A stretch of 64,000 nt of DNA from Eledone cirrhosa (Eukaryota). The notes beneath the pieces were generated by a model, which saw nothing but the letters and a program-made list of their open reading frames with translations, did not search any database and was not told where the DNA came from. The DNA lies in the NCBI GenBank assembly GCA_964016885.1, contig OZ024754.1, positions 33,294,001 through 33,358,000 on the forward strand, written 5' to 3'. Shown here piece by piece: positions 26,432-62,642 of this stretch. Each line of letters begins with the position of its first letter. The stretch's first letter is position 1. The translations under genes were made by a program, and so were the position numbers.

Positions 26432-26626
26432 AAAACGAAGGAAATGTGGTAAGGAACCAGGTGGACCATAACGCACCAAAGTACTCAATACTTAGGGTAG
26501 TAGAGTGGGTAATAGGAACGAGTAGGACCCCGACGGCTGAGCTCAAGCCGTTTCGACGGCTAATTCTGAGTCCAGAATCAGCCGTCGAAACGGCTTGAGC
26601 TCAGCCGTCGGGGTCCTACTCGTTCC
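26432..26626. mobile_element. Family F asymmetric fold-back element
   Basis: Long arm ~135 nt and short arm ~57 nt around CTGAGTCCAG; (TA)n on both sides. Confidence 0.88.
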
Positions 26627-26674
26627 TATATATATATATATATATATATATATATATATATATATATATATATA

Positions 26675-27054
26675 TACAAATATTAATAAAATAGATGTTC
26701 TGTTGATCAATTAAATTTTATTATACATATTTCGGAGGTACAACAGTACGTCCTCATCAGACAAAATATAATGATACATGACATACCCTGAGATGTTAAA
26801 TGGTTAAGATTTAATATCTTAACCATTTAACATCTCAGGGTGTGTCATGTATCATTATATTTTGTTTGATGAGGACGTACTGTTGTACCTCCGAAATATG
26901 TATAATAAAATTTAATTGATGAAAAGAACATCTATTTTATTAATATTTGTATTTTAATATTAATAATCTGGAAAATTATTTTACTGTAGAGTGCTTCCAA
27001 TCTACTGTAAAACTCATTCTTTGATGTACTCATTGAATCTTGTTTAACTCTTTA
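26675..27054. mobile_element. Family A fold-back element with two HHR copies
   Basis: Near-perfect palindrome 26675-26951 plus tail; intact HHR on minus strand 26715-26767 (CTGATGA-ggacgtac..gtacctcc-GAAA-tatgta-TA); plus copy has TTGATGA. Confidence 0.85.
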
Positions 27055-27134
27055 ATATATATATATAGATATATAGATATATAGATATATATACGATAAT
27101 AACAAATGGAAACTATATTTATAAAACCATATTT

Positions 27135-27197
27135 ATTTCATTATACATATTTCAAGGACACCAAGTTAAATTATGGTGTGCTTTCATCAGACAAAAT
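27135..27197 (-). ncRNA. Hammerhead ribozyme (family A)
   Basis: RC: attttgt-CTGATGA-aagcacacca..tggtgtcctt-GAAA-tatgta-TA-atgaaat. Confidence 0.78.
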
Positions 27198-27524
27198 ATA
27201 ATATAGAGCAGTTTTATAACTAAATATTGACATACCCTTAAAAAATGCAACCATTACTGTTGGAAGCTCCCGGATAGCATTTTGTATATATATATATATA
27301 TATATATATATATACAGAATTTAGTACAGCATCAACGAAGCCATGGTTGCAGCCAAGCTAACGAATGCAGTTTCGATGTGCAGCTAAGCACTCGATAGGG
27401 TATATAACCCTAGAGTTATAACATTACGTTTAGACAGCTTTGCAAAATGAAGACAGCGACCGATAGAAGGGCCGCAGTGACCATAGCGACGAAAAAGACT
27501 GAACTCAGGAAAAATTTTACTCAC

Positions 27525-57395: not shown

Positions 57396-60269
57396 CCCTC
57401 TCAGTCCTGCACCTTAAACTTAGTCTACATAGTCTACATAGTTGGCTTAATGTTAGCGCCAGTCCTGCATTCAACAGAAAATACGTCTTCCATTCATTGA
57501 TTCTCCTGAAATAGGAACTTATTAGCAGGTGTTGTGAACCGTTTAGAAAGTTTGGCGCCATTTACCAAACATTATTCCAATAAAGCTTGGCACAGCCATA
57601 GTGATTCAATGAACTCAGCATCTGAAACCCACCCACCCCCATCTAAACAAAAGTGGCTTGGTTCCTTGTCAATTAATTAATTAGTTAATAGTTTTATTTA
57701 TCTATCAATTTACACACACACACACATGTACACACATGTACGCACCCACACTGACACGTTTACACCCACTATATCATCCACACACGACGGACATACACAC
57801 ATACACACACATACACACATACACACACACACACACACACACACACACACACACACACATGTACACACCCGCACTGACACGTTTACACCCACTAACACAT
57901 CTACACACGACGTACATACACACATATATACACACAGAGACAGAAAAGCATACACGCATACAAACAACACACAGAGAGAAAAACACATTTACACATATAC
58001 ATTTTTAATGTGGTGGAAACGCTTGCGGTGGCTGAGGATCTGGGTAGGGTAGAGTAGGGGAGAGCGGGGGGGGGGCGCGGGGGGGGGGATATCCGAACCC
58101 CAAAAAATGTTAAGTTGGGGGAGGGATAGCTGACAACGGGTGGGTGGGGGAAGACAAAAGGAATTAGAAAGACAGGGGGGAGTCCGATGGACAAGAAAGG
58201 GCGAAGGGTTGTGGAGGAGGGGGAAAAAAACAATGAAAACAAAAGAAATTAGAAGAAATTGACGGGGCGAAGATGGAGGGATGGTTGAGGTGTTGATGGG
58301 GTGCTAACAGGAATAACCGCCGGCCATCTGTTATGAGCGGATCACACACGTTTGACGTAACGTCCAAACAGCGATGAAACCGTGGTGTGACGTTCATTGC
58401 GGCCGACGTCGTTTGGTGTGGAAAGTTGATTTTACATCGACCTCCCCCACCCTTTACACACATCCACCCCCTACACACATATACACACATACATATACAT
58501 ATATATACATATATACATACATACATACATGCACATACGCACGCAAGATACAGACAAATACACGCATTATTTTATACTCCTGTATAATGCGTGTGGCTAT
58601 ATGTGTATATATATATATATATATATATATATATATATATATATATATATATATATATATATATATATATATATATATATATATATATATATATATATAT
58701 ATATATATATATATATATATATATATGCATACATATGCATGCGAATATCTGTCTATTACTATCGAACTTTTTCTTCCTCTTCCTCTCCCTCTCTCTCTCT
58801 CTCTCTCTCTATATATATATATATATATATATATATATATATATATATGTGTGTATATATATATATGTATACATATATATATATATGTATATATATATAT
58901 ACATATATATATATATATATACATATGCATATATATATATACATACATATATATATATATATATATACATATATATATATATATATATATACACATATAT
59001 ATATATATATATATATATATATATATACATATACATATATCTATATATATACATATATATATACATATACATATATATACATATATATATATATATACAT
59101 ATACATATATATATACATATATATATATACATATATATACATATACATATATATATATACATATACATATACATATACATATATATGCATATACATATAT
59201 ATATATATACATATATCTAAACACACATATATATATATATATATATATGTATATATACATATATATATATATACATATATATACATATATATATATATAC
59301 ATATATACATATACATATATATACATATATGCATATATATATACATATAGATATATATACATATATATACATATACATATATATATATACATATGCATAT
59401 ACATATATATCTACATATACATATACATATATATATATACATATACATATATATATATATACATATATACATATATATATACATATACATATATATATAT
59501 ATATATATATATATACATATATATATATACATATATATATATACATATATATATATATACATATACATATATATATATACATATACATATACATATATAT
59601 GCATATACATATATATATATATATACATATATCTAAACACACATATATATATATATATATATATGTATATATACATATATATACATATATTTATATATAC
59701 ATATACATATACATATATATACATATATGCATATATATACATATATATACATATATATACATATACATATATATATATACATATGCATATACATATATAT
59801 ATACATATACATATACATATATATATATACATATACATATATATATATATACATATATACATATATATATACATATACATATATATACATATATATACGT
59901 ATACATATATATACATATGCATATATATATATATATACATATACATATGCATATATATATATATATACATATGTATATATATATATACATACATATATAT
60001 ATGCATACTTATATATGTATATACATATATATATAGATGCATACATAGATATGTCGTTGTATATGTATGTATATATGAATGTGTACATGTATGTATGTAT
60101 GCATATGTTTCCGTGTGTTTCTATAACAATAATATTTCTGTTGGCATCCATCACAAAATAGACACACACACATACACACACACACAGACACACACACATT
60201 AACAGTAAAACATTTGCACACACCTACACACAACTCTAAAATACATGATCACATAGAGGTTTGAATGCA

Positions 60270-60905
60270 TGCATGTGTGTGTATTGTGTGTGTGCATGTG
60301 TGTGTTGTGTGTGTGCATGTGTGTGTGTGTGTTGTGTGTGTGCATGTGTGTGTGTTGTGTGTGTGTGTATTGTGTGTGTGCATGTGTGTGTGTTGTGTGT
60401 GTGTGTATTGTGTGTGTGCATGTGTGTGTTGTGTGTGCATGTGTGTGTGTTGTGTGTGTGTATTGTGTGTGTGCATGTGTGTGTTGTGTGTGTGTTGTGT
60501 GTGTGTATTGTGTATGTGTTGTGTGTGTGTGTATTGTGTGTGTGCTTGTGTGTGTTGTGTGCGTGTTGTGTGTGTGTATTGTGTGTGTGTTGGTGTTGTG
60601 TGTGTGTGTTGTGTGTGTGTGTATTGTGTGTGTGCATGTGTGTGTTGTGTGTGTGTTGTGTGTGTATATTGTGTTTGTGGTGTGTGTGTGTATTGTGTGT
60701 GTGCATGTGTGTGTTGTGTGTGTGTTGTGTGTGTGTATTGTGTGTTGTGTGTGTGTGTTGTGTGTGTGTTGTGTGTATGCATGTGTGTGTGCATGTGTGT
60801 GTTGTGTGTGTGTTGTGTGTGTGCATGTGTGTGTGTTGTGTGTGTGTTGTGTGTGTGCATGTGTGTGTGGTGTGTGTGCATGTGTGTGCATGTGTGTGTG
60901 TGCAT
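60270..60905. repeat. (GT)n-derived degenerate tract
   Basis: Direct reading. Confidence 0.95.
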
Positions 60906-60909
60906 ATGT

Positions 60910-61880
60910 GTGTCGGACTCTATGTATATATGTAAGGCCATATGTGTGTGTGTGTGTGTTGTGTGTGTCGGACTATATGTATATATGTAAGGCTATATAT
61001 GTGTGTGTGTGTGTGTTGTGTGTGTCGGACTATATGTATATATGTAAGGCTATATATGTGTGTGTTGTGTGTGTCGGACTATGTGTATATATGTAAGGCT
61101 ATATATGTGTGTGTATGTGTGTGTCGGACTATATGTATATATGTAAGGCTATATATGTGTGTGTGTATGTTGTGTGTCGGACTATATGTATATATGTAAG
61201 GCTATATATGTGTGTGTGTATGTGTGTGTGTTGTATGTGTCGGACTATATGTATATATGTAAGGCTATATATGTACGTGTGTGTGTTGTGTGTGTCGGAC
61301 TATATGTATATATGTAAGGCTATATATGTGTGTGTGTATGTGTGTGTCGGACTATATGTATATATGTAAGGCTATATATGTGTGTATGTATGTGTGTGTC
61401 GGACTATATGTATATATGTAAGGCTATATATGTGTGCGTGTGTGTGTGTGTTGTGTGTGTCGGACTATATGTATATATGTAAGGCTATATATGTGTGTGT
61501 GTATGTTGTGTGTCGGACTATATGTATATATGTAAGGCTATATATGTGTGTGTGTATGTGTGTGTGTTGTATGTGTCGGACTATATGTATATATGTAAGG
61601 CTATATATGTACATGTGTGTGTTGTGTGTCGGACTATATGTATATATGTAAGGCTATATATGTGTGTGTGTATGTGTGTGTCGGACTATATGTATATATG
61701 TAAGGCTATATATGTGTGTATGTATGTGTGTGTCGGACTATATGTATATATGTAAGGCTATATATGTGTGCGTGTGTGTGTGTGTTGTGTGTGTCGGACT
61801 ATATGTATATATGTAAAGCTGTATATATGTGTGTGTGTTGTGTGTGTCGGACTATATGTATATATGTAAGGCTATATATA
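60910..61880. repeat. Array of ~18 constant GTCGGACTATATGTATATATGTAAGGCTATATAT units with variable (GT) spacers
   Basis: Direct reading. Confidence 0.93.
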
Positions 61881-62437
61881 TACGATGTGGTGTGTGTATA
61901 CATGTGTAAAAATATACACTCATTCACATATGTTTATTCGTTGAAACTGCTTCGTATATATCCTCTCATATAAAATGAAGCACGCACAAGACACGCAATA
62001 TATATAATTATATATATATATATATATATATATATATATATATATATATATATATATATATATATATATATGCATGTGTGTTCGCGTGTGTGTATACACA
62101 TACATATATATATTAGATATATGTGTGTGTATGTGTGTGTGTGTGGGTGTGTTTGTATATATATATATATATACATATAGATGTGTATGTGTGTATACAT
62201 AAACGGTGTCCCCCCAAAATATATACGTATATTTACTAGAATGTTGTTGAAGTGTGTATACATTTTTGGGACTCCCTGTGTGTATATATATATATATATA
62301 TATTTAATGCAATGAAATACCAATGACCGTTGGCAAATCACTGATGGGGGACTCATTTTATAACATGTTATCCATGTGCAACCATGCAGTATTCTTCTCC
62401 CCATATTTTTCACATATATATATATATATATATATAT

Positions 62438-62642
62438 AACGAAGGAAATGTGGTAAGGAACCAGGTGGACCATAACGCACCAAAGTACTCAATACTTAGG
62501 GTAGTAGAGTTGGTAATAGGAACGAGTAGGACCCCGACGGCTGAGCTCAAGCCGTTTCGACGGCTAATTCTGGACGCTAATTCTGGTCCAGAATTAGCCG
62601 TCGAAACGGCTTGATCTCAGCCGTCGGGGTCTTACTCGTTCC
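62438..62642. mobile_element. Family F asymmetric fold-back element
   Basis: Centre has a duplication, CTGGACGCTAATTCTGGTCCAG. Confidence 0.88.

What the first reader, a model, noticed from the sequence alone, without database searches (positions are those of the whole stretch)
26432..62642. Family F folds back exactly in the putative ribozyme stem II and deletes its own CUGANGA
Seen: four copies (26432, 44957, 51310, 62438) are palindromes centred on GACGGCTAATTCTG-x-CAGAATTAGCCGTC followed by GAAA-cggc-TT-gagctc, the 3' half of a hammerhead. Where CUGANGA should be, the mirror image TTTC appears instead. Centres differ between copies, and arm-specific variants are mirrored within a copy (taggacc in 26432, taagacc in 51310), suggesting independent events. 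A fifth copy (17816) is truncated inside the same stem. Inference: the stem II hairpin is a hotspot where reverse transcription stalls and the cDNA self-primes, giving ribozyme-dead hairpin insertions.
Basis: partly seen in the sequence, partly recalled or inferred. Interest (0 to 1): 0.8.

Follow-up and report, generated by a model that had tools for sequence, protein, structure and literature searches.

The report
Run-off palindromes of a Penelope retroelement
These small mirror-image repeats are over 12,000 stumps of one Penelope-like jumping gene, and their fold points sit at the predicted start of its RNA rather than in a ribozyme stem, so each was likely made by joining two short DNA copies that ran off the RNA's front end.

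Summary
Family F is the end repeat (pLTR) of a Hydra-clade Penelope-like element (PLE). G000 holds at least 12,477 such mini-palindromes. The parent has a complete hammerhead fold with a non-canonical core: U3-A8 in 2,080 arms, a C3·A8 mismatch in 1,153, CUGANGA in 12. The 'stem II' is made by the inversion itself. Fold points lie in loop II, at a predicted initiator 29-31 nt below a TATA-like box, and often carry an extra G as if a cap was copied. A second family (5,373 palindromes) folds at its own predicted +1 and keeps CUGANGA. A minor class folds at the hammerhead cut site. 108 of 116 copies have one tailed and one tail-less arm, and simple fold-back does not fit most junctions. Best model (0.55): two cDNAs primed at the element's two internal start sites run off the RNA 5' end and join head to head. 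The architecture is known; I found no paper tying the breakpoints to RNA 5' ends. No RNA data were available.

The parts
26435..26626 (.). Family F mini-palindrome: tailed arm 26435-26568 (element sense on -), tail-less arm 26569-26626 (sense on +) that starts at the predicted +1 and ends at site A
44958..45150 (.). Family F mini-palindrome: tailed arm on -, one untemplated base at 45093, tail-less arm from +2 (45094) to site A
51310..51501 (.). Family F mini-palindrome: tail-less arm 51310-51367 (sense on -, reaches +1), tailed arm 51368-51501 (sense on +) ending at site B
62439..62642 (.). Family F mini-palindrome with a 10-nt slipped duplication at the centre; the two arms differ at two sites
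17816..17944 (+). Family F single tailed arm, 5'-truncated about 10 nt below +1 and joined to (TA)n
51378..51404 (+). 3' half of the hammerhead in one arm (end of stem II 3' strand, GAAA, stem III, GUC triplet); predicted cut between 51404 and 51405. The 5' core half is absent from all five window copies
   Evidence: sequence; parent fold
51424..51501 (+). 'Tail': the segment between site A (end of hammerhead stem I) and site B; in full-length copies it is part of the 5' UTR leading to the ORF
17715..17800 (.). Family G palindrome (comparison case): another hammerhead-bearing repeat folded just upstream of an intact CUGAUGA, at its own predicted +1
19940..20030 (.). Second family G palindrome with the same fold point; CUGAAGA kept in both arms

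Best explanation
Family F copies are dead-end insertions of the end repeat of a Hydra-clade Penelope-like element, each likely made from two short cDNAs that ran off the 5' end of the element's RNA and were joined head to head. SHOWN: the parent is pLTR-ORF-pLTR (unit about 3.56 kb); arms end at two fixed 3' sites, A (end of hammerhead stem I) and B (about 80 nt further, in the 5' UTR); arms begin in a window of about -3 to +10 around an initiator-like A in hammerhead loop II, 29-31 nt below a TATA-like box. INFERRED: that A is the RNA polymerase II start site, so the RNA begins inside the ribozyme and lacks its 5' core half. The endonuclease would nick both strands of (TA)n; one 3' end would prime reverse transcription at site A and the other at site B. 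Because these sites also lie 60 and 140 nt from the RNA 5' end, both cDNAs would run off quickly (like retroviral strong-stop DNA), often gaining C opposite the cap and then untemplated A, and would be joined bluntly, by 1-4 nt of microhomology, or by a jump of one polymerase onto the other cDNA's end. A minor class would arise the same way from RNA whose 5' end was made by hammerhead cleavage. The products lack the TATA box and the core, so they are likely neither transcribed from their own promoter nor self-cleaving.
For: (1) Sharp upstream limit. Of 208 arms, 168 start at or below +1, 23 extend only by T (matching parental TTT), 8 are ambiguous because the mirror mimics the parent, and 9 extend 1-6 nt. 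Starts at +1 or above: 69, at +2: 37 of 216 arms. At least 12,477 palindromes against 2,080 + 1,153 arms that read through the core. (2) TATA-like 8-mer to +1 is 29-31 nt in all of the 15 commonest classes listed from 76 parent arms. (3) Extra G: of 79 (TA)n-flanked arms starting at +1, the base before is G 26, A 6, C 47 (counted by eye; T excluded by design); background G/(G+A) is 0.31-0.34, p<1e-7. No common parent has G there (1 of 50). (4) Family G: 5,373 palindromes centred 0-20 nt above CUGAWGA; three of four non-inverted parents inspected have TATAAATA 28-30 nt above the fold point and the fourth a one-letter variant; the same T-G addition occurs. No stem II is involved. (5) A second end class at the predicted cut site: 896 matches, 25 of the first 30 loci true starts, against 100 starts 3 nt upstream and 34 tailed starts 4 nt downstream; 23 of the first 50 of 853 short-centre palindromes have both arms at or within 2 nt below the cut (by eye). 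(6) Tail on exactly one arm in 108 of 116, also in kilobase inverted copies (L043, L044, L051). Either arm can be the longer one (56 tailed, 30 tail-less, 22 equal). 19 blunt joints and 22 with a loop under 3 nt among 104. (7) In vitro a Poseidon PLE cleaves and extends both strands and starts at two internal sites that bound the tail (PMC11167929). (8) Contig depth rises about 13- to 24-fold across +1 in run X1, and loose ends pile at L040:1116-1117 against a predicted family G +1 at 1119; this is consistent, but the tool warns that depth is no copy number and X1 may be the assembly's own sample.
Against: The start site and the cap are predicted from motifs and junctions only. In junctions with a gap, the base before +1 is T 22, G 10, A 5, C 2, and the T runs follow parents that have TTT there, so many templates reached 1-3 nt above the A; a stall on that U tract would look similar. 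In the commonest junctions the G can come from the mirror arm. The tailed arm is longer more often than chance (56 vs 30, p=0.007), which favours some fold-back. Arm haplotypes match in 54 of 55 (shuffle mean 21, maximum 33), as expected from one template but also from fold-back. The cut site begins a G run, so the second class could be a G-run stop; only two control positions were counted. A third of read-through arms have a C3·A8 core that should be impaired, and their linked haplotype is not clearly depleted at the cut site (19 of 72 by eye against 36 of 122 arms). The 116 palindromes come almost all from the first 52 Mb of contig C1.
Confidence: 0.55

Rival explanations
1. One cDNA primed at site B runs off the RNA 5' end (same predicted start site), folds back on its own end with the help of untemplated bases, copies itself, and is cut or joined to the target at site A.
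For: Arms share a haplotype in 54 of 55; the tailed arm is longer in 56 against 30; 19 of 104 junctions have hairpin geometry from the tailed arm, and added C/A bases could rescue some blunt cases; loop II has a short built-in inverted repeat used in 9 of 116 junctions. Self-priming and endonuclease resolution of the tail are the published proposals (PMC3846280, PMC8557442).
Against: With arms capped at +1, the tail-less arm is at least 3 nt longer in 19 of 108 and the two differ by less than 3 nt in 57; loop-less perfect palindromes occur; some junctions have G-plus-T additions on both arms; site A is also the 3' end of single arms and of kilobase arms.
Confidence: 0.2
2. One reading: reverse transcriptase stalls at the hammerhead stem II on a long RNA and the cDNA self-primes.
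For: The fold lies 4-10 nt past the 3' strand of stem II; a strong alternative hairpin over GAAA is predicted just below it.
Against: The fold is in an unpaired loop, after the helix strand is already copied; family G folds above its core with no stem II nearby; the extra-G excess and the TATA spacing in two families are unexplained; geometry as above.
Confidence: 0.1
3. The limit is a slippage or drop-off site: the enzyme stutters on the U tract just above the initiator-like A on read-through RNA, with no start site there; two cDNAs are then joined.
For: T runs of 1 to over 15 nt precede +1, mostly in subfamilies whose parent has TTT there.
Against: Subfamilies with TTC show the same limit; the family G parents have CCC or GCC above their fold point; G excess.
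Confidence: 0.1
4. All copies descend from a palindromic master that moves as a MITE, or are assembly artefacts.
For: Uniform size and very high copy number.
Against: 75 distinct centres in 116 copies across several subfamilies, asymmetric arms, 49 unmirrored rare variants; ends match those of the autonomous retroelement.
Confidence: 0.02

Closest known systems
Hydra-clade Penelope-like elements (Craig et al. 2021, PMC8557442; passages and section 11 read)
   Same: C-terminal GIY-YIG, RW[K/R], DKT, CxCx5C linker, no CCHH, CxxC and CxH, (TA)n targets, hammerhead in the pLTR.
   Different: Unit about 3.56 kb rather than under 3 kb; hammerhead core U3-A8 or C3·A8 rather than canonical; no mass of mini-palindromes is described in the parts read. 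Their supplementary files, not seen, may list this family.
PLE insertion units with an inverted 5'-truncated pLTR, a one-sided tail and junction palindromes (Arkhipova et al. 2013, PMC3846280; passages and Discussion read)
   Same: Head-to-head inverted pLTRs, tail on one arm, TATA and Inr-like motifs noted in a pLTR.
   Different: There the palindromes are ascribed to self-priming on an antisense template; here the breakpoints sit at the predicted sense start site and at the cut site, the tail is about 80 nt rather than 30-40, and the stumps outnumber read-through arms about four to one.
Two internal initiation sites of the anole Poseidon PLE (Frangieh et al. 2024, PMC11167929; parts 1-2 of 4 read)
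   Same: Two start sites bound the tail; both target strands are cut and extended; hammerhead cleavage is not needed for insertion.
   Different: That work does not model inverted products and found no RNA reads ending at the cut site; here genomic arms pile up at the cut site.
U3-A8 hammerheads of Schistosoma Cercyon PLEs (Cervera and de la Peña 2014, PMC4209133; parts 1-2 of 4 read)
   Same: Same covariation in a PLE pLTR; pairs of motifs on opposite strands 100-700 bp apart were noted.
   Different: Those are minimal motifs; family F has a 5-bp stem III, a loop II of about 35 nt that holds the predicted promoter, and a large C3·A8 subfamily.
Retroviral minus-strand strong-stop DNA and L1 twin priming (both recalled, not read here)
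   Same: Short run-off cDNA from a primer site near the RNA 5' end; both target strands used as primers.
   Different: No tRNA primer or integrase; in L1 the two cDNAs copy different parts of the RNA, whereas here they copy the same part and give a palindrome.

Membership tests
EN+ Penelope-like element | Single ORF with PLE-type RT and GIY-YIG endonuclease | tested here: met
   710-aa open stretch in L051 with YRDD and a VIY...YIG motif; Atlas neighbours at 0.96-0.99 include clusters with GIY-YIG and RVT_1. Pfam alone gave no family.
EN+ Penelope-like element | Partial tandem forming pLTRs, inverted truncated copy, one-sided tail | tested here: met
   L334 pLTRs 3228-3994 and 6792-7558; L336 and L338 add inverted copies; tail on one arm in 108 of 116.
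Hydra clade | RWK motif, no GxKF/Y, DKG changed to DKT | tested here: met
   RWR at 27 (R for K), DKT at 109, no GxKF/Y.
Hydra clade | CxCx5C linker, CCHH absent, CxxC and CxH around the conserved E and N, C-terminal endonuclease | tested here: met
   CxCx5C at 564, one C between VIY and YIG, CxxC at 662, CxH at 690.
Hydra clade | Insertion into (TA)n | tested here: met
   Arms abut (TA)n in nearly all copies.
Hydra clade | RT phylogeny with reference Hydra families | not tested
   No reference sequences were on hand.
Naiad/Chlamys clade | N-terminal endonuclease | tested here: not met
   The endonuclease is C-terminal.
Neptune/Nematis clades | CX2-5CxxC linker and CCHH in the endonuclease | tested here: not met
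   Linker is CxCx5C and CCHH is absent; my early Neptune reading was dropped.
Type I hammerhead ribozyme (parent pLTR) | Three-way junction with GAAA, G10.1-C11.1 and an NUH triplet | tested here: met
   The minimum-energy fold of L334:7355-7480 is the three-stem junction, though no more stable than shuffles (z -0.5); Rfam does not find it.
Type I hammerhead ribozyme (parent pLTR) | Paired core positions 3 and 8 | tested here: inconclusive
   U3-A8 in 2,080 arms, C3·A8 mismatch in 1,153, C3-G8 in 12 by a shorter pattern; C3-G8 copies are scattered on the tree, as expected of later mutants.
Type I hammerhead ribozyme (parent pLTR) | Self-cleavage | not testable with these tools
   Only indirect: arm starts pile at the predicted cut.
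Type I hammerhead ribozyme (window copies) | 5' core half and stem I/II 5' strands | tested here: not met
   Absent from all five copies.
MITE | Terminal inverted repeats and a fixed master sequence | tested here: not met
   Ends are unequal and centres are diverse.
Retrozyme | Direct repeats each with an intact hammerhead around a non-coding centre | tested here: not met
   Inverted arms with half a ribozyme; the parent encodes its own RT.

The most novel reading that the evidence does not exclude
The inverted repeat with a one-sided tail that marks Penelope-like elements is made by paired priming at two internal sites of a capped sense RNA, and the tiny palindromes are a genomic record of RNA 5' ends: in this genome they map the start sites of at least two families to the base and record hammerhead self-cleavage in the germline, here by a ribozyme whose loop II houses the element's own promoter. 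The same run-off cDNA, transferred to the 3' pLTR, could be how the pLTR and promoter are regenerated.
Probability: 0.4. Interest if true: 0.75.

Novelty: new variant of a known kind. Interest (0 to 1): 0.55.

Why it matters
How PLEs make head-to-head repeats with a tail on one side, whether they copy a sense or an antisense RNA, and whether their hammerheads cut in vivo are stated as open in the papers read (PMC3846280, PMC8557442, PMC4209133, PMC11167929). Thousands of independent junctions in one genome turn these into base-level predictions that 5' mapping and an existing in vitro assay can test. In practice such stumps will be mis-annotated as MITEs, microRNA hairpins or broken ribozymes, and searches for CUGANGA miss this whole family's ribozyme.

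Tried and rejected
Rfam found no hammerhead in the rows shown for the window (150 of 415) or in the parent pLTR. A DNA search of G000 with one arm returned nothing because common words are skipped; patterns were used instead. Parents with CUGANGA within 30 nt (12 matches) or 31-60 nt (63 matches) are chimeras with other families, mutated mirrors or the rare C3-G8 copies. Pfam and PDB searches of the ORF gave nothing useful. Naiad and Neptune assignments were rejected. No RNA holder listed; run X4 is of unknown kind, so its depth steps are not used. The tree of 76 parent arms did not settle whether U3-A8 or C3·A8 came first; it is midpoint-rooted, and several rows include unrelated flank and have long branches. 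Whether the C3·A8 subfamily lacks cut-site copies stayed unresolved. Target-site duplications cannot be read in (TA)n. Loci fetched by CUGANGA-type, TA-flank, family G or cut-site patterns were left out of the palindrome counts; one search also left out the four window copies (104 rather than 108). Paper searches that found no account of breakpoints at the start site or cut site of PLEs; the library lacks most subscription papers, including the early Penelope structure papers.
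Full report
Observation. The four palindromes and the fifth single arm are at the stated places. Each palindrome has two mirrored arms of about 60 nt; one arm continues into an unpaired tail of about 80 nt. The tail-less arm ends at TTCC|TA (site A), the tailed arm at TTCGT|TA (site B), both in (TA)n. Mirrors are imperfect in three of the four copies.

Scale. A 36-letter family motif has 19,014 exact matches in G000. Head-to-head pairs with at most 30 nt between exact 15-letter anchors number 12,477, and 11,861 matches link such a centre to a tail (copies with two tails count twice). 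All are lower bounds; reversed control patterns gave 0.

Parent. Non-inverted arms continue upstream into a 3' UTR and a long ORF. Full-length copies are partial tandems with a unit of about 3.56 kb (L334: pLTRs 3228-3994 and 6792-7558). The tail is the first part of the 5' UTR and leads to the start codon. The 710-aa open stretch of L051 has RWR, DKT, YRDD, a CxCx5C linker, a C-terminal VIY...YIG endonuclease without CCHH, then CxxC and CxH. These are the features that Craig et al. list for the Hydra clade (PMC8557442 section 11). No tree against reference families was built.

Ribozyme. The parent pLTR folds as a type I hammerhead whose extended stem I ends at site A (no more stable than shuffles, z -0.5). 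Stem II is a 6-bp helix closing a loop of about 35 nt. The core is UUGANAA (U3-A8) in 2,080 arms, CUGANAA (C3·A8 mismatch) in 1,153 and canonical in 12 by a shorter pattern; the canonical ones scatter over the tree. U3-A8 is known from Schistosoma PLEs (PMC4209133). Single changes at the 3-8 pair abolish cleavage in the anole element, and insertion does not need cleavage (PMC11167929), which fits the success of the mismatch subfamily.

Where the fold lies. Loop II holds a TATA-like 8-mer 29-31 nt above an initiator-like T[C/T]AGT (the consensus motifs and spacing are recalled knowledge). I call that A +1. In 108 one-tailed palindromes, arm starts capped at +1 are: +1 69, +2 37, +3 13, +4 13, +5 25, +6 17, +7 26, +8 9, +9 5, +10 2. 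Of 208 arms, 168 start at or below +1, 23 extend by T only, 8 are ambiguous and 9 extend 1-6 nt. The anchors limit centre length to 30-40 nt, so this sample cannot show far-upstream folds; the genome counts (12,477 palindromes against 3,233 read-through arms) and the depth step across +1 in run X1 (about 0.2 million to 2.6-5 million; not a copy number, perhaps the same sample) point the same way.

Added bases. Among 79 arms that start at +1 right after TATATA and one non-T base, that base is G in 26, A in 6 and C in 47 (by eye). G exceeds background strongly (G/(G+A) 0.81 against 0.31-0.34, p<1e-7). C is confounded by the parent base and by common repeat interruptions. Copying of a cap as C is recalled behaviour of reverse transcriptases. 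Against a single-base start: in gapped junctions the base before +1 is T 22, G 10, A 5, C 2, and T runs follow TTT parents. The limit is therefore about -3 to +2, which suits a normal spread of start sites but also a stutter on the U tract.

A second family as a test. Family G (window 17715-17800 and 19940-20030) has a canonical core. Its palindromes (5,373) are centred just above CUGANGA and keep it in both arms. Three of four non-inverted parents inspected carry TATAAATA 28-30 nt above the fold point, the fourth a one-letter variant. I predicted +1 at L040:1119 before laying contigs; loose ends piled at 1116-1117 and depth fell across that point. A stem II stall cannot explain this family.

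A second kind of 5' end. 896 matches have an arm starting at the predicted cut after GUC; 25 of the first 30 loci are true starts and 5 are G-run slips. Controls: 100 starts 3 nt upstream and 34 tailed starts 4 nt downstream (tailed arms only). Of the first 50 of 853 short-centre palindromes, 23 have both arms at or within 2 nt below the cut, 19 are centred in the self-complementary stem III loop and 8 are mixed (by eye). This suggests that cleaved RNA is also copied, at a few percent of the main class. A stop at the G run is not excluded, and an earlier AI note on another genome found such a site only mildly favoured (e1-9850483).

How the two arms are made. In 116 palindromes, mostly from the first 52 Mb of C1, 108 have one tail, 7 two and 1 none; there are 75 distinct centres. 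Arms share the subfamily haplotype in 54 of 55 cases (shuffle mean 21, maximum 33), while rare variants are unmirrored (49 against 1). So both arms come from one RNA or one active source, and copies arose independently. Fold-back requires the first strand to contain all of the second, so it must be the tailed arm and be longer by a loop. The tailed arm is longer in 56, the tail-less arm in 30, and 22 are equal. Of 104 junctions, 19 fit fold-back from the tailed arm, 7 only from the tail-less arm, 22 have microhomology with a loop under 3 nt, 19 are blunt and 37 have untemplated inserts. Untemplated bases could rescue fold-back in some, and the bias to the tailed arm (p=0.007) suggests a mixture or trimming of the first cDNA. 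Two target-primed cDNAs from sites A and B explain the one-sided tail at every scale, including kilobase inverted copies, and match the two start sites and two-strand extension seen in vitro (PMC11167929).

Known and new. Known: inverted pLTRs with a one-sided tail, junction palindromes read as self-priming on an antisense template, TATA and Inr-like motifs in a pLTR (PMC3846280), an internal TATA-less promoter in Drosophila Penelope (PMC2377424, passages), U3-A8 cores, two start sites. In a plant retrozyme the mapped start lies upstream of the ribozyme and cleavage removes the 5' part (PMC12029980 section 2.1); here a start inside loop II would spare the RNA that fate. Not found in ten searches of the held library: breakpoints tied to RNA 5' ends, a cap signature, a promoter in loop II, or stumps as the dominant product. 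Supplements of PMC8557442 and PMC4209133 were not seen and may list this family. Other agents' notes report similar mini-palindromes in other genomes, so the product looks general; none shown there mentions a start site.

Verdict. A real feature and a variant of the known PLE insertion structure. Run-off at the RNA 5' end is the likely cause of the hotspot (about 0.75 over the two models that use it), with paired priming favoured (0.55) over fold-back (0.2). Interest 0.55.

Noticed in passing
window 26740-26900: A third hammerhead-bearing repeat (family H) forms a palindrome centred about 50 nt above its CUGAUGA; its parents have a TATA-like box and an initiator-like motif 5-15 nt above the fold.
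   Followed up: partly
window 4137, 4981, 16965, 21608, 28885, 50643, 53825 (+) and 53473, 34477, 33851, 27190 (-): Many further CUGANGA...GAAA motifs from several repeat families; the window is rich in likely PLE ends that Rfam does not list.
   Followed up: partly
L060:466-900: A short tandem in which a copy starting at +1 with added T is joined to the first codons of the ORF of another copy, as if the enzyme jumped from an RNA 5' end to a second RNA.
   Followed up: partly
L032, L035, L038 and rows: Family F arms starting near +1 are joined directly to the ends of other hammerhead-bearing families, suggesting template jumps between families.
   Followed up: no
window 51372-51404: The 7-letter word AGCCGTC occurs in both the stem II and stem III 3' strands; in RNA starting at +1 it forms a hairpin that hides GAAA, a possible off switch, and slips between the two copies delete the segment (L004).
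   Followed up: partly
L204 and L222: Long copies in which one arm begins at or within a base of the hammerhead cut site and is joined to an inverted internal part of the element.
   Followed up: partly
window 41160-41230 and 54253-54430: Other inverted repeats of unknown family.
   Followed up: no
window 1300-4600: A long tandem array of 9- and 12-nt units; exact end not determined.
   Followed up: no
window 1-64000: Four family F palindromes in 64 kb is about 15 times the genome mean of about 4 per Mb.
   Followed up: no
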